Below the pieces are notes generated by a model. That model was not told where the DNA came from. It made no database searches and saw only the letters and a program-made list of their open reading frames with translations. Shown piece by piece: positions 5,536 through 55,730 of a stretch of 64,000 bases of DNA. Numbering within the stretch: position 1 is the stretch's first letter; each line of letters starts with the position of its first letter. The position numbers and the translations under genes were made by a program. Source of the DNA: Eledone cirrhosa (Eukaryota); assembly GCA_964016885.1 (NCBI GenBank), contig OZ024745.1:40362001-40426000 (forward strand). The letters are read 5' to 3'.

Positions 5536-5587
<52 letters not shown>

Positions 5588-5592
<5 letters not shown>

Positions 5593-5963
5593 AAGATGAA
5601 TATAAAATGAAAGTGCTTTTATTGAAAAGGAATTTATTAGGTATTGACATATGTTTCTGTAACAGACGGAATACCTATGTATCGCTGCTTGCGTAATCAT
5701 ATAATGTTAGCAAGTATTCGATAGCAAATGTATAATCAGTTGTCACTTCTTCAGAGATTTTGGATAAACTGGATAAAATCAGAAAAATTGAAGTATTTAT
5801 ATTAGTAATAGAGGAAGAAGAGAGGGGGTAGTATATGACAGATGGTAAATCAATTTACTGCTAAACAAGTATATAAAGGGTTTCTAATGAGAATACCATG
5901 AGTAAATGGTTCATTTTATCTAAATAAGAATTTTTGGGAGTGCCAATTTTAATCTATACTTGA
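5588..5963 (-). repeat. Inverted copy of pLTR (matches 8578-8953)
   Basis: Near-perfect reverse complement over about 375 bp; I saw one mismatch near 5956. Confidence 0.95.
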
Positions 5964-6322
5964 GGAGCGCATCATCACGGTAGATTCCACCGTGGAGATC
6001 CTTGAATTTTCCTTGTAGTCTGTGGGTGATATAAATTCCCACAAGATCTGTGGAATCTACCGTGATGATGCGCTCCTATTAGTTAAGTATATGAATAACC
6101 AGAATTTAGAAAGGATGCGTAAAAATATCAGAAAGCTTTTTAAGGAACTAGGATTAAATATTACATTTGAATATAACCTCAAAGAGGTCAATTTAAGGTT
6201 CTCATTTAGTTTATGGAACGGTTTAATCGTATCTGTATTGAGATTCAAAGTAACATCAAGGAAATTGACCTCTTTGAGGTTATATTCAAATGTAATATTT
6301 AATCCTAGTTCCTTAAAAAGCT

Positions 6323-7250
6323 AGGAGCGCATCATCACGGTAGATTCCACCGTGGGGATCCTTGAATTTTCCTTGTAGTCTGTGGGTGATATAAATTCCC
6401 ACAAGATCTGTTACTTCCGCCGAATCATTAGAACCCATAGTGATATCAAAATTAGAAGGTCTATCTTTGCGAACCCAGTAGCTATCATCGAATTTAACTC
6501 TAGTTTTCCTCGCTTACATAATAATTTTAATTTCAGCATCCGTAAGGTCGGAATTAGTCTTAGCGAACGAAAGAGCTTCATGTAGAGTATCAGGTGAAAT
6601 TGAGGAATAATATTCATCAATATCAAACTGAATAAATTTTGATTTTTTCTTATCAGTAATGTTATTAAACCATCTTATTGCTTCATGAGTGTTACCCCAT
6701 AGTTTAATTTCTACTTTAACCTTAACTTGGGGGATAATTCTGTCTAGTATATATTTGCTAATTTTGCCTATATCAGATTTAGAGGGGCATATAAGTCTAA
6801 TCTTAGGGTTAGTATCAAAGTTTACCTTGTGGTCCTTCAGGTTGAAGGATGGTATAGCTGGTGTTAAGGGTTGCGTTCTATCGTCAATACAAAGTTTTTT
6901 AACTATTTCACATGCCGAGTTGTTGATCTTCTTAAGTGTAGCTTCATTAGTTTTCTTATATTTGTTATGCAATTCCTTACCGATGAAGTTATTGTAAGTG
7001 TCCACATCCATGGTATATACGTTTGATGTTTTGTCTGCTCTAACAATAATTCCATTGGCGTTTTTTAGATTATTGAGCAGTGCTGTGATGTCATTCTGTA
7101 GTTTATTGTTCTTCCGCTTTGTAAATTTGATCTCCATGATCATATCCATTAGGTCTTGTTCAAATGCATCCAAAAGTGGGTTTGAGGGTGGGTTCTTGTA
7201 AGATTTAAATCCAAATTTATCCTTGTTAAGATGTTTGGTTTATACGGCTT
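6323..7250 (-). pseudogene. Naiad-like PLE RT N-terminal/fingers-palm segment (inverted)
   Basis: ORF 6514-7173: IIVRADKTSNVY, LKDHKVNF..PKIRLICPSKSDIGKISK, FIQFDIDEYYSSI. Confidence 0.9.
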
Positions 7251-8301
7251 TAAATATGTAAATACGAGTTCTAACCATCCACTCTCTATAATTAAATCCA
7301 TCCCTAGAAATGTTTCTCTTAGAATCTCCCGCCTGTCGTCCAACCAACAAACCTTCAAAGAACATGCCGAATATTATGATGATGCACTCAGGAAAGCCGG
7401 ACACCTAGATAATATAGAGTATATAGTCGAAGATAACCAAAACACCCAAAATAAACCCCATAGGAGTAGAAATAGCGCAGAATCACCACCATAGACACAA
7501 TAATGGTCGCACACCACCAAACAGAAGGCGATGTAAAGAGTATATTTGATACAACCCGGTCTATAACAACTCTATTAAAACCAATCTACCCTCACAATTC
7601 TTTCGAGTAGTTAAAAAACACTTTCCAACATCACATAAATATAATAAAATCTTAAACCCTAACACTATTCGACTTTCATATTCAACCGCCCCTAATATTG
7701 AACAACGTATAAAAAAGCTTAACGCAAAACGGTTGTATAAGCGCCTTCCAACACATAACAATACACGTAAAACATTAGCTATAACATCACAAAACAACAA
7801 ACAACATCCTGTCCTACCTAAGCAACCTCACCAACCCATCCATGGCAATGCAACAACGCAAAATTATAATTGCAACTGTGTCCAACCAGGGATGTGTCCG
7901 TTGAACAATCAGTGTCTTGAACGCAACATCGTATACAAATGTACTATCGAATCGGATAGACAGAAGTGGTACTATGTGGGATCTACAGCCACCTCCTTCA
8001 AATCACGCCTTTATAGACATCGTTACTCGATAAAACATGAGAACCAGCGTTATGTAACAACACTCGCAGACAAGGCTTGGCAGCTGCGTGAAAATAACCA
8101 ACAATTTCACCTAAAATGGGATATAATAGCGGCTCCCCCCCATATTCCATCGGACAGGAATTTTGTAAATTATGTAATGTAGAATTATTTTGTATTATGA
8201 AATCCAAAAACATTTTATTAAATAACAGAATAGAGCGATCGTTATACTGTAACCATCGCTTAAAATCTACATTTTCATATTATAAATACTACCAGGATTG
8301 A
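7250..8301 (+). pseudogene. Naiad-like PLE RT thumb, Cys linker and GIY-YIG endonuclease (frameshifted)
   Basis: KYVNTSSNHP..RISRLSSN (thumb); CNCVQPGMCPLNNQC; VYKC..YVGST; stop at about 7494 and frameshift at about 8135. Confidence 0.9.
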
Positions 8302-8780
8302 ACGCCTGTCTCTATCTCCGTTTGATTGTCAAAATAGACATTAACATTCTCTATTAGTCTTAATTCTATCAACTCTTGTATTATTTACCATTTAAAATAA
8401 ACTGCTATAGATACAATGAGATTTCTGATTTCTTAATTCAATTCCCTAATGTATATACCAGCTGGCTACTAGCATTGGTGTTATTCAGCAGCAATCGAAA
8501 TCTCCTCCTTCCCCAATTGACACTTTATAATTAATACTACTACACCAAATGACCAGCCCTGTCCACTGTCCAATTGGTCAAGTAGAGATTAAAATTGGCA
8601 CTCCCAAAAATTCTTATTTAGATAAAATGAACCATTTACTCATGGTATTCTCATTAGAAACCCTTTATATACTTGTTTAGCAGTAAATTGATTTACCATC
8701 TGTCATATACTACCCCCTCTCTTCTTCCTCTATTACTAATATAAATACTTCAATTTTTCTGATTTTATCCAGTTTATCCA

Positions 8781-8903
8781 AAATCTCTGAAGAAGTGACA
8801 ACTGATTATACATTTGCTATCGAATACTTGCTAACATTATATGATTACGCAAGCAGCGATACATAGGTATTCCGTCTGTTACAGAAACATATGTCAATAC
8901 CTA
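8781..8903 (+). ncRNA. Type I hammerhead-like motif with long stem II in the Naiad pLTR (mirror copy about 5638-5760, minus)
   Basis: CTGAAGA(8787)-A-GTGACA..about 76 nt..TGTTAC-A-GAAA-CATATG-TC(8895); palindromic stem III ACATATGT; canonical stem I is weak. Confidence 0.6.
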
Positions 8904-9055
8904 ATAAATTCCTTTTCAATAAAAGCACTTTCATTTTATATTCATCTTTTCTACATTTTCTCCGGAATATAATTTATACTCGTTGAGCAAACCTACAAGT
9001 ACGCTGTTCATCTCTAACGTAACGATATATTATCACTACATTATTGATAACCTGA

Positions 9056-27040: not shown

Positions 27041-27132
27041 CGCCATATATATATATGAATGTATGTATGTATGTATGTATGTATGTATGTATGTATGTAT
27101 GTATGTATGTATGTATGTATGTATGTATGTAT

Positions 27133-27834
27133 TTACCATACCATACCCTATCTAGACTAAAGTCATCGACTTGTTGTCAAACTCTCTACTCTCTGTTGAA
27201 TGTGTATATATATATATATGTGTGTGTATGTATATGTGTGTATATGTGTGTATATACATCACTCAGTCAAACGACCAGATTTCAACCCCAACATCTACAA
27301 CAACAACAACACCGGCACTAATGTTTACAGCAACAACAGCTTCAGAATGAACTGAAATGAACATTTACAACAACAACAACAGCGGCATCAAAACATAAAA
27401 AAAGGAAGGGAAAAGAAAAGAAAAGGGAAAGAAAAAAAAAAACTCAAAATAACAAAACACACACACACACACACGCACACAACACAACAACAACATCAAC
27501 TGCCACCACCACCACCACCACGGCCACCGCCGCCGCCATCACCATCACCAGCGACCGGGCCTTAAGAAAACAACTTTAATAATAATTTTTCTGCTTTTGG
27601 CACGGATCCAGCGACTGGTACAGCGCATCACTGGTACTCTCTTTTGTTGACTCCGTGGAGATGAAGGGCAGGGTTGATCTCGGCGGGATTTGAGCTCAGA
27701 GCGTGGGGAGTCATAACTCTATGCTGTAAAGCAATTATAATAATACTGGACTGTAATACGATCGGCTTTAACTATACAAACTCTTGAAGGTCAACAGTTG
27801 ACATAATCTTGTAATCTTGTATCAGTAATGACGG

Positions 27835-27887
<53 letters not shown>

Positions 27888-30800
27888 CGTGCGTGTAAGT
27901 GAGTAGAGTAGCGTGTGTGTGTGTTTGTTTGTATGTATGTGTTGCTGTGTGCGCGCATATGTATGCGTGTGTGTGTATGTCGTACGTATAAGTGTCAATA
28001 AGTGAGTTTTTTTTTTGGGGGGGGGGGGTGCGCGCGCGGGGACATAGAAATAATCGGGCTGGATGCCCGATCGCGCAGTTAAACCACTGGGAGTGAAGAA
28101 CCCCTAGCCCTTGTCAGGGCATTCTTCTAGGAGAAGGCATCTCAGGAAACTGGGTTAACTCCGATATAAAACCTGCGGCTCAGTAGTTACCGATGATGTT
28201 GATCTTTTCTTCTTTTCGGGTTATAGCTACTGTCGCTCAGAGAGTGGGATTGGCTCAGTGCACAGTCTTTCCTCACTTTAAAAATATTCGTCACGCACAG
28301 GCATTGCACGAGTGCATTAATAATTATTAATAGTGTACTACTATTATTATTATTATTATTACTATTATTATTATTATTACTTTTTTTTAGTAATCACAGC
28401 CTGGGCCCGCTCGTCATCGTGCCATTGTAATAGAGCCAAACAAGGCATTTAGTCTTGGCTGCTGGAACGTACGGACGCTGCTTGACAGGGATTCCTTGGA
28501 GCGTCCTGAACGAAGGACAGCTCTTGTTGCAAAGGAGCTTCGACGTTACGATCTTGACATCGTGGCTTTATCTGAGACGAGGTTAGCTGGAGATGGTCAT
28601 CTTACGGAATTTTGTGGAGAATATACATTCTTCTGGAAAGGAAGAGATGAAGGAACCAGAAGAGAGGCTGGGGTAGGATTTGCTGTTAAGACTGTACTTG
28701 TGAATAAATTAGAAGAATTCCCAGTAGGGATTAGTGAACGTCTTATGTCCATGAGAGTTCCGCTGGACAGAGGAAGATATGCTACCCTGGTGATTGGGTA
28801 TGCTCCAACTATGAATTCTGTCGATGAAGAAAAACTGTCCTTTTACCATGCCTTGAAAGGTGTTCTAAGAAATATCCCTCAGGCAGACAAAGTCATCGTG
28901 CTTGGTGACTTTAATGCTAGAGTGGGTAGGGATGTTAACACATGGAATGTAATCAGAAGGCATGGGGTGGGAAAGTGTAACAGCAATGGTATGCTCCTGC
29001 TGCAGATGTGTGAGGAGCTGGATCTGTGTGTTACCAACACCATGTTCCAACAAAAGAACAAATTCAAGACCACATGGATGCATCCTGCATCTAAGGAATG
29101 GCATCTTTCGGTCTACGTCCTAGTCAGGATGCGTGACAGACAGGATGTGCAGTGTGTTCGTGTTCTTCGTAGAGCTGAGTGCTGGACGGACCACCGCCTG
29201 GTCCGCGCAAAAGTGAAACTAATCACCAAACGTAAAATCCGGGCTCCTGGTGTTACCCTGCCCAAAAGATTGAATGCTGCTCGTCTTAAGGATAACAATG
29301 TGAAGAGGACATTGGAAGAAGTGATGCAGGCTGCAGATGTTGGTGAGGATTGGCCGACCCTTAAAAAGTCGGTTTATGATGTAGGCAGGCGTGTTCTGGG
29401 ATTGATGCAGAGAAAACATCAGGACTGGTTTAATGAGAATGATGTACATATAGAAGACTTGTTGGCTGATAAGAGGCGTGCTCTGTCACGCTACTTGACG
29501 GCAAAACCACAGGAGAGGAATACGTTTCATGAGGAGCTCAGGGATGTAAAATCACGTGTTAGGCGGGGTCTTTCTCAGATGAAGGATCAGTGGTGGAGTG
29601 AGAAGGCTGGTGAGATACAAACTGCATCTGATTCCAATAACACAAAGCTGTTGTACAGTCTCTTGCGTGAGGTTTATGGACCGTCTTCTTCTCTGGTGAC
29701 ACCGCTTCGCAGCAAGGATGGCAAAGAACTTCTTCTTCATGACTCACAGGGAATTCTACGAAGGTGGCGAGAGCACTTTGATGATCTTTTGAATCAGCCG
29801 TCTGTCGTTAGTGAAGATTTCCTCAATCTCATTCCGGAAAGTCCTGTGAAAATAGCTCTCGCAGCACCTCCGACGCTTGTGGAGGTTGCAGTGGCTATTT
29901 CGAAGCTGAACAGTGGAAGATCTCCAGGTATGGATGGCATGCTGAGCTCCTACAATATGGTGGTGAGAGACTCCTGCAACATCTGCACTCTTTGTTTGGA
30001 AGGATATGGGCTAATGAATCCGTACCTGAGGACTGGAGAGATGCAGTAATGGTGGCCTTGTACAAGGGAAAGGGTAACAGGAATTATTGTGGGAGCTACA
30101 GAGGTATATCATTGCTTTCTGTCGTAGGGAAAGTTTTATGTAGGGTGCTTCTGGACCGTCTGCTGACACACATTGCAGATTGTGTTCTTCCTGAAAGTCA
30201 ATCTGGTTTTCGTGCTGGACGCGGCACTACTGATATGATCTTCTCAGCTAGACAGCTCCAGGAGGGGTGTGCATTGAACAAGGCTTGGATCTGTATCAGG
30301 TTTTTGTCGATCTGACAAAGGCTTTCGATACTGTCAACAGAGAGGCATTATGGAAGGTTCTCCAGAAACTTGGTTGCCCTGATAAGTTCCTTGCTTTAGT
30401 TAGGTCTTTCCATGACGACATGAAGGCTTGGGTTAATGTCGGAGGTAACATGTCGGAGCCTACCTCAGTAAAAAATGGAGTGAAACAGGGGGATATTCCA
30501 GCACCGACCCTGTTTGCCATATACTTTGCAATGGTTTTCTGTATTGCATTCAGGAATTGCGAGCATGGTGTTTACATCCGATATCGAACCCCAGGCAGCA
30601 TATTTAACATCAGGCGCTTTGTTGCGAAGACGAAAGCATTTACATCAATCATAAGAGACCTCTTGTATGCAGATGATTGCGATCTTGTAGCGCACACAGA
30701 GAGTGATATGCAGCACATTTTGAATGCATTTTCTGACGCTTGCACTGCCCTGGGTTTGACTGTCAGTCTCAAGAAAACCGTCGTCATGTACCAACCTGCC

Positions 30801-31988
30801 CCTAGTAAGCAGTACACTGAACCAAACATCTATGTGTATGGCAGACGACTTGGAGTGGTTGATCAGTTTGTCTACCTGGGAAGCACTGTCAATCGATACG
30901 GCAACCTTGACAGTGAAATCTCACTTAGGATTAGGAAAGCAAGTGATGCTTTCGGAAAGCTAGAAAAGCGACTCTGGGGTCGGCGAGACATATGCAGGAG
31001 GACAAAGGTAAAGGTGTACAGGGCATGTGTACTCTCTTGTCTTTTTATGCCTGCGAGACCTGGGTCACATATCGACACCACCTTAAGCAATTGGAGCGTT
31101 TCCATCAGATGTGTCTCAGACGGATCCATGGCGTTCACTGGAGGGACCACATCAGTGATGTCGAGATTTTGGATTGCTCTATGTGTGACAGTATAGAAGC
31201 TCTTGTGCTTAAGCAACGACTCCATTGGAGTGGTCACCTTGCCAGGATGAAGGATTCTAGAATACCAAAACAACTCTTCTATGGAGAGTTGGTTAAAGGA
31301 AAACGACCGCCACATAAACCAAAAAAGAGGTATAAGGATTCCTTGAAAGCCTCTCTGAAAGACGCTAACATCTCTGCTGATACATGGGAAAATATTGCTG
31401 CTGATCGTAATAAATGGAGAAAGACTGTATATGACGGAAAAGTTGCCTTTGAGGCATCTCGAATCGCACACGAGAAAGTAAATCGGGATGTGAGGAAGGG
31501 CATTGCTGTTGCCCTTCCAGACGGCGGGGGTCCTCCTATGGTGCTGACATGCAGCGTCTGTGCGAGACGCTGCCTAAGCAATGCTGGACTCGAAAGTCAT
31601 CTTCGCAGTCATAAAGTAAGACCAGTGGTTGACTACCAGGCTGCTGTTGGAGATGCTACTCATCATGCTTGCCAAACATGTGGTAGAGAATGTAAATCAG
31701 CAAGAGGGCTCAAGCGACATGCAAAAGTACACGAACTCCAACCACAGCCGCATATTCCCAGTGAATGTTTTGGTTGCCGACTCTGTGCAAGACATTGTAG
31801 ATCATTGGCTGGGCTAAAAAGCCACATTCGATCGCAGCACTCTTAGTTGTTATCGTGTGTGTGTGTGTGAGTAGATATGCTTATGTGCGTGCGTGTGTGT
31901 GTATATATATATATATGAACATGAATATTATTATTGTTGTTGTCGTTATTATTATTGTTGCCATTGTTATTATTGTTGTTATTATTAA

Positions 31989-32180: not shown

Positions 32181-32260
32181 TTATTTTATTTATTTTTTTA
32201 TTTTTTATTTTTTCTTCTCGTGCAATGGCCATACTCGATAACGAGGGGGCAGCCATTATG
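27133..32260 (+). mobile_element. RTE-clade LINE copy 1 with about 1.2-kb leader, frameshifted
   Basis: Collinear with copy 2; lacks the start-codon region; ends TGGCCATACTCGATAACGAGGGGGCAGCCAT plus (TATG)n. Confidence 0.95.
28400..31846 (+). pseudogene. RTE APE-RT-C2H2 polyprotein, broken by three frameshifts (about 29940, 30265, 31045)
   Basis: ORF pieces 28496-30049, 29992-30315, 30267-31196 and 30992-31846 align to the intact ORF. Confidence 0.95.
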
Positions 32261-32334
32261 TATGTATGTATGTATGTATGTATGTATGTATGTATGTATG
32301 TATGTATGTATGTATGTATGTATGTATGTATATT

Positions 32335-32827
32335 TTACATTTACTTACATCTCAATATAACATGGCTAGAATTCAAATTTTGCTAAGAGAAGAAAACGGT
32401 CAAATGAACTAGATACATCTCACTGTCCACACCACCACAATAACGTCTACACTCTCTCCCCCCCATCACATGTCATTACCATACCATACCCTATCGAGAC
32501 TAAAGTCATCGACCTGTTGTCAAACTCTCTACTCTCTGATGAATGTATATATATATATGTGTGTGTATGTATATGTGTGTATATACATCACTCAGTCAAA
32601 CAACCAGATTTCAACCCCAACATCTACAACAACAACAACACCGGCACTAATGTTTACAGCAACAACAGCTTCAGAATGAACTGAAATGAACATTTACAAC
32701 AATTACAACAACAACAACAACAGCGGCATCAAAACATAAAAAAAGGAAGGGAAAAGAAAAAAGAAAAGGGAAGGGGAAAAAAAAAAAAGGAGAAAAAAAA
32801 GAAAGGAAAAAAAAAACTCAAAATAAC

Positions 32828-32860
<33 letters not shown>

Positions 32861-33628
32861 CAGAACAACAACATCAACTGCCACCACCACCACCACCACC
32901 GCCACCGCCGTCGCCATCACCATCACCAGCGACCTTAAGAACAACTTTAATAATAATTTTTCTGCTTTTGGCACGGATCCAGCGACTGGCCAGCGCATCA
33001 CTGGTACTCTCTTTTGTTGACTCCGTGGAGAGCCATAACTCTATGCTGTAAAGCAATTATAGTAATACTGGACTGTAATACGATCGGCTTCAACTATACA
33101 AACTCTTGAAAGTCAACAGTTGACATAATCTGGTAATCTTGTATCAGTAATGACGGTAATATATATATATATGTGTGTGTGTGTGCGTGTAAGTGAGTAG
33201 AGTAGCGTGTGTGTGTGTTTGTTGTGTGTGTGAGTGTTGCTGTGTGCACGCATATGTATGCGTGTGTGTGTATGTCGTACGTATAAGTGTCAATAAGTAA
33301 TTTTTTTTTTTTTTTTTTTTTTTTTGCGCGGGGACATAGAAATAATCGGGCTGGATGCCCGATCGCGCAGTTAAACCACTGGGAGTGAAGAACCCCTAGC
33401 CCATGTCAGGGTATTCTTCTAGGAGAAGGCATCTCAGGAAACTGGGTTAACTCCGATATAAAACCTGCGGCTCAGTAGTTACCGATGATGTTGATCTTTT
33501 CTTCTTTTCGGGTTATAGCTACTGTCGCTCAGAGAGTGGGATTGGTTCAGTGCACAGTCTTTCCTCACTTTAAAAATATTCGTCACGCACAGGCATTGCA
33601 CGAGTGCATTAATAATTATTAATAGTGT

Positions 33629-33663
<35 letters not shown>

Positions 33664-36600
33664 TATTATTACTTTTTTTTTTTTTTTATTTTTTTTTCCA
33701 ATTCAATGATGTTCCAGAACAATGTAAACGAGATAATTGCCAATTTGGGTTCTGGAACAAAAAAGATCATTGGCAATAAGGGCAGGGGCCCCAAGTTATC
33801 ACAACCTGGGCCCGCCCGTCATCGTGCCATTGTAATAGAGCCAAACAGGGCATTTAGTCTTGGCTGCTGGAACGTACGGACGCTGCTTGACAGGGATTCT
33901 TTGGAGCGTCCTGAACGAAGGACCGCTCTTGTTGCGAAGGAGCTTCGACGTTACGATCTTGACATCGTGGCTTTGTCTGAGACGAGGTTAGCTGGAGATG
34001 GTCATCTTACGGAATTTTGTGGAGAATATACATTCTTCTGGAAAGGAAGAGATGAAGGAACCAGAAGAGAGGCTGGGGTAGGATTTGCTGTTAAGACTGT
34101 ACTGGTGAATAAATTAGAAGAATTCCCAGTGGGGATTAGTGAGCGTCTTATGTCCATGAGAGTTCCGCTGGACAAGGGAAGATATGCTACCCTGGTGAGT
34201 GTGTATGCTCCAACTATGAATTCTGTCGATGAAGAAAAACTGTCCTTTTACCATGCCTTGAAAGGTGTTTTAAGAAATATCCCTCAGGCAGACAAAGTCA
34301 TCGTGCTTGGTGACTTTAATGCTAGAGTGGGTAGGGATTTTAACACATGGAATGTAATCGGAAGGCATGGGGTGGGAAAGTGTAACAGCAATGGTATGCT
34401 CTTGCTGCAGATGTGTGAGGAGCTGGATCTGTGTGTTACCAACACCATGTTCCAACAAAAGAACAAATTCAAGACCACATGGATGCATCCTGCATCTAAG
34501 GAATGGCATCTTTTGGACTACGTCCTAGTCAGGATGCGTGACAGACAGGATGTGCAGTGTGTTCGTGTTCTTCGTGGAGCTGAGTGCTGGACGGACCACC
34601 GCCTGGTACGCGCAAAAGTGAATCTAATCACCAAACGTAAAATCCGGGCTCCTGGTGTTACCCTGCCCAAAAGATTGAATGCTGCTCGTCTTAAGGATAA
34701 AAATGTGAAGAGGACATTGGAAGAAGAGATGCAGGCTGCAGATCTTGGTGAGGATTGGCCGACCCTTAAAAAGTCGGTTTATGATGTAGGCAGACGTGTT
34801 CTGGGATTGGTGCAGAGAAAACATCAGGACTGGTTTAATGAGAAAGATGTGCATATAGATGACTTGTTGGCTGATAAGAGGCGCGCTCTGTCACGCTACT
34901 TGACGGCAAAACCGCAGGAGAGGAATACGTTGCATGAGGAGCTCAGGGATGTAAAATCACGTGTTAGGCGGAGTCTTTCTCAGATGAAGGATCAGTGGTG
35001 GAGTGAGAAGGCTGGTGAGATACAAACTGCGTCTGATTGCAATAACACAAAGCTGTTGTACAGTCTCTTGCGTGAGGTTTATGGACCGTCTTCTTCTCTG
35101 GTGACACCGATTCGCAGCAGGGATGGCAAAGAACTTCTTCGTGACTCACAGGGAATTCTACGAAGGTGGCGAGAGCACTTTGATGATCTTTTGAATCAGC
35201 CGTCTGTCGTCAGTGAAGATTTCCTCAATCTCATTCCGGAAAGTCCTGTGAAAGTAGCTCTCGCAGAACCTCCGACACTTGTGGAGGTTGCAGTGGCTAT
35301 TTCGAAGCTGAACAGTGGAAGATCTCCAGGTATGGATGGCATACATGCTGAGCTCCTACAATATGGTGGTGAGATACTCCTGCAACATCTTCACTCTCTG
35401 TTTGGAAGGATATGGGCTAATGAATCCGTGCCTGAGGACTGGAGAGATGCAGTAATGGTGGTCTTGTACAAGGGAAAGGGTAACAGGAATGATTGTGGGA
35501 ACTACAGAGGTATATCATTGCTTTCTGTCGTGGGGAAAGTTTTATGTAGGGTGCTTCTGGACCGTCTGCTGACACACATTGCAGATTGTGTCCTTCCTGA
35601 AAGTCAATCTGGTTTTCGTGTTGGACGCGGCACTACTGATATGATCTTCTCAGCTAGACAGCTCCAGGAGAAGTGCATTGAACAGGGCTTGGATCTGTAT
35701 CAGGTTTTTGTCGATCTGACAAAGGCTTTCGATACTGTCAACAGAGATGCATTATGGAAGGTTCTCCAGAAACTTGGTTGCCCTGATAAGTTCCTTGCTT
35801 TAGTTAGGTCTTTCCATGACGACATGAAGGCTTGGGTTAATGTCGGAGGTAACATGTCGGAGCCTATCTCAGTAAAAAATGGAGTGAAACAGGGGGATAT
35901 TCCAGCACCGACCCTGTTTGCCATATACTTTGCAATGGTTTTCTGTATTGCATTCAGGAATTGCGAGCATGGTGTTTACATCCGATATCGAACCTCAGGC
36001 AGCATATTTAACATCAGGCGCTTTGCTGCGAAGACAAAAGTATTTACATCAGTCATAAGAGACCTCTTGTATGCAGATGATTGCGATCTTGTAGCGCACA
36101 CAGAGAGTGATATGCAGCACATTTTGAATGTATTTTCTGACGCTTGCACTGCCCTGGGTTTGACTGTCAGTCTCAGGAAAACCGTCGTCATGTACCAACC
36201 TGCACCTGGTAGGCAGTACACTGAACCAAACATCTATGTGTATGGCAAACGACTTGGAGTGGTTGATCAGTTTGTCTACCTGGGAAGCACTGTCAATCGA
36301 TACGGCAACCTTGACAGTGAAATCTCACTTAGGATTAGGAAAGCAAGTGATGCTTTCGGAAAGCTAGAAAGGCGACTCTGGGGTCGGCGAGACATATGCA
36401 GGAGGACAAAGGTAAAGGTGTACAGGGCATGTGTACTCTCTTGTCTTCTTTATGCCTGCGAGACCTGGGTCACATATCGACGCCACCTTAAGCAATTGGA
36501 GCGTTTCCATCAGATGTGTCTCAGACGGATACATGGCGTTCACTGGAGGGCCCACATCAGTGATGTCGAGATTTTGGAAAGCTCTATGTGTGACAGTATA

Positions 36601-37259
36601 GAAGCTCTTGTGCTTAAGCAGCGACTCCGTTGGAGTGGTCACCTTGCCAGGATGAAGGATTCTAGAATACCAAAACAACTCTTCTATGGAGAGTTGGTTA
36701 AAGGAAAACGACCGCCACATAAACCAAAAAAGAGGTATAAGGATTCCTTGAAGGCCTCTCTGAAAGACGCTAACATCTCTGCTGATACATGGGAAAATAT
36801 TGCTGCTGATCGTCATAAATGGAGAAAGACTGTATATGAGGGAAAAGTTGCCTTTCAGGCATCTCGAATCGCACACGAGAAAGTAAAGCGGGACGTGAGG
36901 AAGGGTATTGCTGTTGCACTTCCAGACGGCGAGGGTCCTCCTATGTTTCTGACATGCAGCGTCTGTGCGAGACTCTGCCTAAGCAAAGCCGGACTCGAAA
37001 GTCATCTTCGCAGTCATAAAGTAAGACCAGTGGTTGACTACCAGGCTGCTGTTGGAGATGCTACTCATCATGCTTGCCAAACATGTGGTAGAGAATGTAA
37101 ATCAGCAGGAGGACTCAAGCGACATGCAAAAGTACACGAACTCCAACCACAGCCGACTATTCCCAGTAAATGTTTTGGTTGCCGACTCTGTGCAAGACAT
37201 TTTAGATCATTGGCTGGGCTAAAAAGCCACATTCGATCGCAGCACTGTTAGTTGCTATC

Positions 37260-45572: not shown

Positions 45573-45805
45573 CCGCCATTGTCACATTGGACTTTTAAAC
45601 TTATGTTTGAATGCCGCTTTCTATAATGGAGTAAAGCATATATAAAAATATATAATATTAAGATATATTAGTGGAACCGGGAAATATGTTAATAAGGCAT
45701 AGCTTACCTACGTCTTAATTCTAGTAAAAAGCATGTTATATGTATAATTTAACCCATAATGCGCATATAATATTTTAAAGAAGATTCTGGCAAAGTTTAT
45801 GTTAA

Positions 45806-45993
45806 ATAATTGTATCTACTTTAGGCACAAGGCCAGCAATTACCCAGTACATTACTGGTACTCTATTTTATCGACCCCGTAAGGATGAAAGGCAAAGTTA
45901 ACCTTGGCGGGATTTGAACTCAGACCGTAAAGGGACGTAACTATGCTAGAAAGCATGGCGTCCAACCCTCTACCGATACTGCCAATTCACCAC
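45806..45993 (-). mobile_element. tRNA-type SINE (main family)
   Basis: Near-consensus copy. Confidence 0.92.

Positions 45994-55084: not shown

Positions 55085-55730
<646 letters not shown>

What the first reader, a model, noticed from the sequence alone, without database searches (positions are those of the whole stretch)
27581..27733. SINE in the RTE leader carries clustered A>G changes: candidate genomic fossil of ADAR hyper-editing
Seen: against sibling SINEs (25152, 43732, 45806) I count by eye about 16 A>G changes in about 150 nt on the RTE sense strand. They cluster in A runs (CACAA>CACGG, CGTAA>CGTGG, CAAAG>CAGGG, GAACT>GAGCT, CGTAAA>CGTGGG), versus about 4-5 for each other transition class. 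The changes in the retained part recur in copy 2 (32951-33054), and neighbouring A-rich tracts are also G-peppered. Known: inosine is reverse-transcribed as G, and coleoids edit heavily. Inference: the leader was transcribed, hyper-edited and written back into the genome by the RTE machinery.
Basis: partly seen in the sequence, partly recalled or inferred. Interest (0 to 1): 0.8.

Follow-up and report, generated by a model that had tools for sequence, protein, structure and literature searches.

The report
RNA editing rewrites an octopus retrotransposon
Copies of an octopus LINE retrotransposon have evolved mostly by A-to-G changes on their RNA strand, in the sequence pattern typical of the RNA-editing enzyme ADAR, so RNA edits are likely being copied into the genome and inherited each time the element jumps.

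Summary
Observation confirmed and much larger than reported. Against 41 free SINEs, 27581-27733 carries A>G at 16 of 45 A (T>C 4 of 41; no free SINE has more than 3). The SINE is antisense inside a 5' leader shared by at least 618 RTE LINE copies; 13 of the 16 changes are family-wide and more accrue in subfamilies; no free G-rich SINE and no unedited donor was found. The bias also runs through the ORF: in 52 young copies 194 of 278 parsimony changes are sense-strand A>G (T>C 11), with neighbour order 5' U>A>C>G and 3' G>C>A>U, as published for human ADAR1, with recurrent hot spots and 36 shared amino-acid changes. It spares most of the leader (1 of 269 A) and a Penelope-like control family. 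The genome is an octopod's and has ADAR genes. Best reading: ADAR edits RTE RNA and the element's reverse transcriptase writes inosine back as G, round after round. No RNA data were available, so the enzyme is inferred. The precedent found was 3 of 235 pseudogene insertions in cell culture; heritable editing dominating a LINE's evolution was not found in ten literature searches.

The parts
27127..28032 (+). Long 5' leader of RTE copy 1 (5'-truncated relative to copy 2), an extension upstream of the element's own 5' UTR, shared by the family
   Evidence: 618 exact hits of a mid-leader 27-mer
27397..27442 (+). A-rich tract peppered with G; predicted to pair with U tracts downstream in the same RNA
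27581..27733 (-). 5'-truncated tRNA-type SINE, antisense in the RTE leader, with 16 A>G changes on the + (RTE sense) strand; 13 family-wide, 3 subfamily-level (27666, 27671, 27707)
28033..28330 (+). The RTE's own 5' UTR (also found joined directly to the 3' tail in short non-autonomous copies); not A>G-enriched
28394..31846 (+). RTE ORF of copy 1, broken across several frames, older subfamily
32331..33700 (+). Leader and 5' UTR of RTE copy 2 (young subfamily); A tract about 32738-32816, T tracts about 33297-33325 and 33672-33700
32951..33054 (-). SINE remnant in copy 2, 48-nt internal deletion, G at all 8 retained edited sites
   Evidence: 237 exact hits of the deletion junction
33706..37251 (+). 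Open RTE ORF of copy 2 (endonuclease, reverse transcriptase, C2H2 fingers); across 52 young copies 107 of 980 A positions show derived G
45803..45992 (-). Free, unedited SINE used as yardstick (also 11776, 13490, 22962, 23484, 25151, 43731, 52047)

Best explanation
This RTE LINE family shows strand-specific A-to-G evolution with ADAR-type neighbours, likely because ADAR edits its RNA and the element's own reverse transcriptase copies inosine as G into each new genomic copy. Shown: the strand bias, its context, its restriction to the antisense SINE, the A tract and the ORF, nested subfamilies gaining G, and recurrence at the same sites. Inferred: (1) the antisense SINE pairs with SINE RNA in trans, which made it the leader's hot spot until most good sites were used and 48 nt were deleted; (2) the A tract pairs with the leader's U tracts in cis; (3) the ORF is edited through local folding or antisense RTE RNA (partner unknown); (4) edited copies become the next sources, so A>G ratchets up in the germ line at about 0.7 or more excess edits per ORF per new copy.
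For: SINE: 16 of 45 A vs 4 of 41 T; over 107 RTE copies 14 A fixed as G and 7 more shared vs 3 and 3 of 41 T; on internal branches of 31 older copies A>G 8 per 34 A in the SINE vs 1 per 188 A in the rest of the leader and 26 per 947 in the ORF (p=1e-6 and 8e-6). Young clade ORF (52 copies): derived sites A>G 107 of 980, T>C 12 of 924, G>A 22 of 946, C>T 20 of 701; shared sites 54 vs 1, 2, 1; parsimony 194 of 278 events A>G, 39 of 41 multi-step sites recurrent A>G. Neighbours: 5' T 30/157, A 42/288, C 27/233, G 8/300; 3' G 54/267, C 19/188, A 22/287, T 12/236 (p=1.6e-9 and 6.5e-8), the order given for hADAR1 in PMC3113232. Leader outside the A tract 1 of 269 A vs ORF 99 of 980 (p=5e-10). Penelope-like control: shared A>G 12 vs T>C 10. 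SINEs freshly inserted beside the edited one are in the A state. ADAR2 with HAE and PCG motifs, 94% identical to Octopus vulgaris. Write-back of ADAR-type clusters by a LINE reverse transcriptase is reported in PMC11702581.
Against: No RNA evidence: no RNA run was listed. No dsRNA partner is identified for the ORF; edited sites are only slightly more paired than triplet-matched ones (0.615 vs 0.589, p=0.02) and the element has no long self-complementary stretch. The very high-copy 5' UTR, about as folded as the ORF, is not edited (0 of 78 A), which is unexplained. Inside the SINE the neighbour test is not significant. Singleton A>G are uneven by genome strand (33 in 28 plus-strand copies, 12 in 24 minus-strand; T>C 5 and 5). 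In older copies the ORF excess is mild (internal A>G 26, T>C 14, G>A 17; terminal 141, 95, 271). Human L1 RNA and new Alu inserts showed no editing. The young/old split was made after seeing divergences.
Confidence: 0.85

Rival explanations
1. The RTE reverse transcriptase has an intrinsic error bias (for example G opposite T in second-strand synthesis, or adenine-specific errors as in diversity-generating retroelements) that gives sense-strand A>G with no editing enzyme.
For: Would be strand-specific, act once per jump and be specific to this family, as seen. The 3' G excess could come from next-base misalignment.
Against: The same enzyme copies the leader, yet 1 of 269 leader A vs 99 of 980 ORF A changed. 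Next-base substitution is absent in the other 11 classes (0-5 hits each) and A>G is still 49 of 486 with no G neighbour. A>T 6 and A>C 3 vs A>G 194 excludes A-to-N mutagenesis.
Confidence: 0.06
2. Another adenine deaminase or RNA modification, or deamination of the exposed plus DNA strand during integration, produces the same change.
For: Genomic copies cannot show which molecule was deaminated; no RNA data.
Against: The full 5' and 3' neighbour order matches hADAR1; hot regions coincide with predicted duplexes; deamination of the cDNA strand would give T>C, which is at background.
Confidence: 0.05
3. Ordinary DNA-level processes: transcription-associated strand asymmetry, GC-biased gene conversion, or selection against pairing with SINE RNA in source elements.
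For: Transcribed loci can show a modest A>G excess (recalled); some homoplasy (480 of 1431 site pairs incompatible) could come from conversion between copies.
Against: 194 vs 11 is far above a modest asymmetry; GC bias predicts T>C equal to A>G; A>G leaves G-U pairs and is the weakest way to break a duplex; non-A>G shared sites map almost without homoplasy; the Penelope-like family is symmetric.
Confidence: 0.03
4. A G-rich SINE subfamily existed independently and was captured by the RTE, or the pattern is an assembly artefact.
For: No unedited donor or empty leader was found; only 100 of 510 motif hits were listed.
Against: 20 of 20 fetched unassigned hits are in RTE leader flanks; 510 motif hits vs 618 leader hits; G keeps accruing in RTE subfamilies; the bias follows the element's strand on both genome strands and does not explain the ORF.
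Confidence: 0.01

Closest known systems
ADAR-type clusters in L1-mediated processed pseudogenes (PMC11702581; passages seen)
   Same: Edited RNA is written into DNA by a LINE reverse transcriptase; changes sit in a SINE-derived duplex.
   Different: 3 of 235 insertions, passenger mRNAs, cultured cells, one round. Here the autonomous LINE itself, nested heritable subfamilies, 70% of all changes, with protein recoding.
APOBEC DNA editing of LTR retrotransposons (PMC4866542, PMC2873906; passages seen)
   Same: A host deaminase leaves a strand-biased, context-specific signature in genomic retroelement copies.
   Different: G>A from cDNA deamination, LTR elements, vertebrates (19 invertebrate genomes were at noise level); mostly inactivating bursts. 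Here A>G, non-LTR, invertebrate, low dose, tolerated and propagated.
ADAR restriction of human L1 and Alu (PMC5224506, PMC3415434; passages seen)
   Same: ADAR engages non-LTR retrotransposon RNA.
   Different: No editing was found in L1 RNA (over 2.5 kb) or in 52,039 bp of new Alu inserts.
Coleoid repeat-directed A-to-I editing and octopus RTE-2_OV (PMC9068888, PMC9115989; passages seen)
   Same: Widespread editing of repeats outside the nervous system; an RTE with one ORF, zinc finger and microsatellite tail is transcribed in octopus.
   Different: The passages seen describe RNA-level editing or expression only, not fixation of edits in genomic copies. Sequence identity to RTE-2_OV was not tested.
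ADAR hypermutation of RNA viruses (PMC5630973, search listing and start of abstract only; retroviral A>G hypermutants recalled, no call)
   Same: A>G edits enter a replicating genome.
   Different: Viral genomes, not a chromosomal LINE lineage.

Membership tests
ADAR (A-to-I) mutational signature | A>G on the RNA strand far above T>C | tested here: met
   16/45 vs 4/41; 107/980 vs 12/924; 194 vs 11 events
ADAR (A-to-I) mutational signature | 5' U>A>C>G and 3' G>C~A>U neighbours | tested here: met
   ORF rates against PMC3113232; not significant in the SINE alone
ADAR (A-to-I) mutational signature | Sites lie in double-stranded RNA | tested here: inconclusive
   Antisense SINE duplex -184 kcal/mol and A tract/U tract pairing predicted; ORF effect small (p=0.02); partner unknown
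ADAR (A-to-I) mutational signature | Inosine in the RNA, dependent on ADAR | not testable with these tools
   No RNA holder listed
ADAR (A-to-I) mutational signature | Host encodes ADAR | tested here: met
   PF02137 hits on four loci; one is 94% identical to Octopus vulgaris ADAR2 over 203 aa
Single-burst hyper-editing | Many edits acquired in one molecule | tested here: inconclusive
   13-14 fixed sites cannot be ordered; L070 has 19; young ORF singletons are 0-4 per copy
APOBEC DNA editing | Sense-strand G>A clusters | tested here: not met
   G>A 22/946 vs C>T 20/701
DGR-like adenine mutagenesis | A to any base | tested here: not met
   A>T 6, A>C 3 vs A>G 194
RTE-clade LINE | Single ORF with AP endonuclease and reverse transcriptase, microsatellite 3' tail | tested here: met
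RTE-clade LINE | Reverse transcriptase groups with RTE in a tree | not tested
   Homologues (50-63% identity) were almost all unnamed
tRNA-derived SINE | A and B boxes in the head, AT-rich tail, high copy | tested here: met
   Boxes read by eye on the minus strand; ARAGORN finds no tRNA; superfamily name not tested

The most novel reading that the evidence does not exclude
In this octopod, ADAR editing is the main mutational engine of an active LINE: site-specific edits recur in independent lineages, are fixed by retrotransposition and recode the element's protein (36 shared changes, 11 of them K>R). The genomic copies are then a heritable record of germ-line RNA editing, a natural RNA-to-DNA route for edits that could also fix edits in host retrogenes.
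Probability: 0.7. Interest if true: 0.88.

Novelty: new variant of a known kind. Interest (0 to 1): 0.82.

Why it matters
RNA editing is normally treated as non-heritable, and ADAR's action on human LINEs was reported as editing-independent. Here editing-type changes make up most of a LINE's recent evolution. If confirmed, (1) it gives a DNA-only read-out of germ-line ADAR activity and site preference in cephalopods, (2) it makes testable whether repeat editing restrains or diversifies transposons, (3) it biases age estimates and trees of such repeats, and (4) it offers a direct mutational route for A-to-G replacement at edited sites through retrocopies. The test (strand bias plus neighbours among young LINE copies) can be run on any animal genome.

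Tried and rejected
Donor search: unedited 5' junction motif 0 hits; unedited-type 3' junction 6 hits, 4 RTE leaders already G-rich and 2 unrelated free SINEs; looser 5' junction 9 hits, of which 6 are fresh SINE insertions in front of the edited SINE, 2 single-site A states and 1 chimera-like (L284); empty leader 0 hits. RNA: no RNA holder listed; laying contigs of X1, X2, X5, X6 and X2, X5, X6 gave no usable outgroup for the leader, and X1/X2 may be the assembly's own sample, so they were not used as support. Stand-alone 5' UTR copies as a control: only 3 recovered, no spectrum. The Penelope-like 800-nt core had singletons A>G 10/316 vs T>C 2/212; the wider region was symmetric (46/1035 vs 33/776); these were 30 best hits of 3395 candidates. 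Self-complementarity of the element: nothing significant. The first tract count used a purine-only pattern and was redone unbiased. Earlier findings of the scan: none. Literature: ten searches found no report of heritable ADAR-driven LINE evolution; subscription journals are largely missing and no supplements were read (Fig. S8 of PMC11702581 not seen).

Full report
Setting. The window lies in a 3.0-Gb genome (G000). A deaminase-domain search found ADAR-type loci; one reads as ADAR2 with HAE and PCG motifs and is 94% identical to Octopus vulgaris ADAR2 over 203 aa, so the host is an octopod. Two tandem LINE copies start near 27127 and 32331. Copy 2 has one open ORF with endonuclease, reverse transcriptase and C2H2 fingers and a microsatellite tail; copy 1 is broken. 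The RTE label rests on this anatomy; no tree was made.

The observation. Against 12 window SINEs and then 41 free SINEs, 27581-27733 differs by A>G at 16 of 45 A, T>C at 4 of 41, G>A at 4 of 32 and C>T at 6 of 34 (p=0.005 for A>G vs T>C); free copies have at most 3 A>G. Copy 2 lacks 48 nt and keeps G at the 8 retained sites. The SINE's A and B boxes are on the minus strand, so it is antisense in the RTE RNA: the A>G changes are on the RTE strand, not the SINE's own.

It is a family trait. The 30 loci fetched from the best 40 hits carry the same leader. A mid-leader 27-mer has 618 exact hits, the G-rich SINE motif 510. Of 98 listed motif hits on C1, about 74 coincided by eye with known leader hits; 20 of the other 24 were fetched and all 20 have leader flanks. 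Across 107 copies with the full SINE (partly chosen by similarity or motif, so frequencies are biased) 14 A are fixed as G (13 of the 16, plus ambiguous 27701), 7 more are shared by subfamilies and 12 are singletons, against 3, 3 and 4 of 41 T; copies carry 10 to 19 G, copy 1 has 16. On a tree of 31 older copies (of 57 found, those with enough ORF), internal-branch A>G were 8 per 34 A in the SINE, 1 per 188 A in the rest of the leader and 26 per 947 A in the ORF. SINEs that later inserted next to the edited one are in the A state. No unedited donor or empty leader was found.

The ORF shows the process more clearly. The 48-nt deletion marks a subfamily with 237 exact junction hits. Of 72 held, 65 plus window copy 2 mapped to the ORF; 14 more diverged or short ones served as outgroup and 52 formed a young clade (split made after seeing divergences; monophyletic). 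Derived sites: A>G 107 of 980, T>C 12 of 924, G>A 22 of 946, C>T 20 of 701; shared polymorphic 54, 1, 2, 1; singletons 45, 10, 17, 15. Parsimony gives 194 A>G of 278 events, and 39 of 41 multi-step sites are recurrent A>G, up to 8 times. Haplotypes form nested ladders, which implies repeated rounds from already changed sources. Rates by neighbour are 5' T 30/157, A 42/288, C 27/233, G 8/300 and 3' G 54/267, C 19/188, A 22/287, T 12/236, the order reported for human ADAR1 (PMC3113232 sections 8 and 9). Shared changes are depleted at non-synonymous sites (36 of 716 vs 26 of 262) while singletons are near neutral (30 vs 15), so selection filters but tolerates them; 36 shared changes alter the protein, 11 as K>R.

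Controls. In the same young copies the alignable leader has 1 changed A of 269 (p=5e-10), which a polymerase error would not spare. Next-base slippage is absent in other classes. A Penelope-like family is symmetric (shared A>G 12, T>C 10). The bias follows the element's strand on both genome strands, though unevenly for singletons (33 in 28 copies, 12 in 24). The leader's A tract is 22% G while its T tract is 0.7% C, and the two are predicted to pair; the tract's origin is unknown, so this is supporting only.

Mechanism. Shown: strand, context, regional pattern, recurrence, inheritance through subfamilies. Inferred: ADAR edits the RTE RNA where it is double-stranded (antisense SINE with SINE RNA, predicted duplex -184 kcal/mol against -104 after the deletion; A tract with U tracts; ORF by folding or antisense RNA), and target-primed reverse transcription reads inosine as G (established). 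The excess of private edits is about 0.7 per ORF per copy ((45-10)/52), a lower bound. Weak points: no RNA data; only a small folding effect in the ORF (p=0.02); the spared 5' UTR is unexplained; the neighbour test is not significant in the SINE alone; in older copies the ORF excess is mild; one burst versus stepwise gain of the 13 fixed sites is open.

Known and new. Write-back of ADAR-type clusters by a LINE is reported for 3 of 235 pseudogene insertions in cultured cells (PMC11702581, passages). Host-deaminase signatures in genomic retroelements are known as APOBEC G>A in vertebrate LTR elements, with invertebrates at noise level (PMC4866542 and PMC2873906, passages). Human L1 RNA and new Alu inserts showed no editing (PMC5224506, PMC3415434, passages). 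Coleoid repeat editing and an expressed octopus RTE are known (PMC9068888, PMC9115989, passages); a review on editing and retrotransposons gave no such case in the passages seen (PMC5974252). Ten searches found no report of heritable ADAR-type evolution of an autonomous LINE; the library lacks most subscription journals. Verdict: real, larger than reported, a new variant of deaminase-driven retroelement evolution; confidence 0.85, interest 0.82.

Noticed in passing
window 28033-28330; L159:444-860, L158:6177-6500: The RTE's own 5' UTR also occurs joined directly to the RTE 3' tail as a short non-autonomous element; contig depth over it is tens of times that of the leader, suggesting a very abundant SINE-like derivative.
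   Followed up: partly
L285, L286, L287, L289, L290, L292: Fresh SINEs have inserted independently at the same AAT-rich tail of the leader SINE, in the same orientation, showing a strong target-site preference.
   Followed up: partly
L284:1518-1668: Leader SINE whose first part is free-SINE-like and the rest G-rich: likely a recombinant of tandem old and new SINEs, less likely an editing intermediate.
   Followed up: partly
L070 (G000:C2:42001428): Most G-rich leader SINE seen, 19 G against a mode of 14, possibly a small editing burst.
   Followed up: partly
window 34845-34884: Four linked non-A>G or reversed-state changes separate five young copies (L198, L201, L126, L204, L199) from the other 47, like a short conversion tract or template switch.
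   Followed up: no
window 5585-8956: Penelope-like element with oppositely oriented ORF pieces between 379-nt inverted arms 99% alike; 3395 first-look candidates in the genome.
   Followed up: partly
window 32253-32331: Copy 2 begins right at the (TATG)n tail of copy 1, and copy 1 follows another (TATG)n run: likely insertion preference for this microsatellite.
   Followed up: no
window 55428-55730: 150-nt inverted repeat, 96% complementary, 3 nt apart.
   Followed up: no
L017, L018, L028, L029, L030 (G000:C12:17.05-17.46 Mb): Five near-identical leader copies with the same extra SINE insertion in one region: a local segmental amplification.
   Followed up: no
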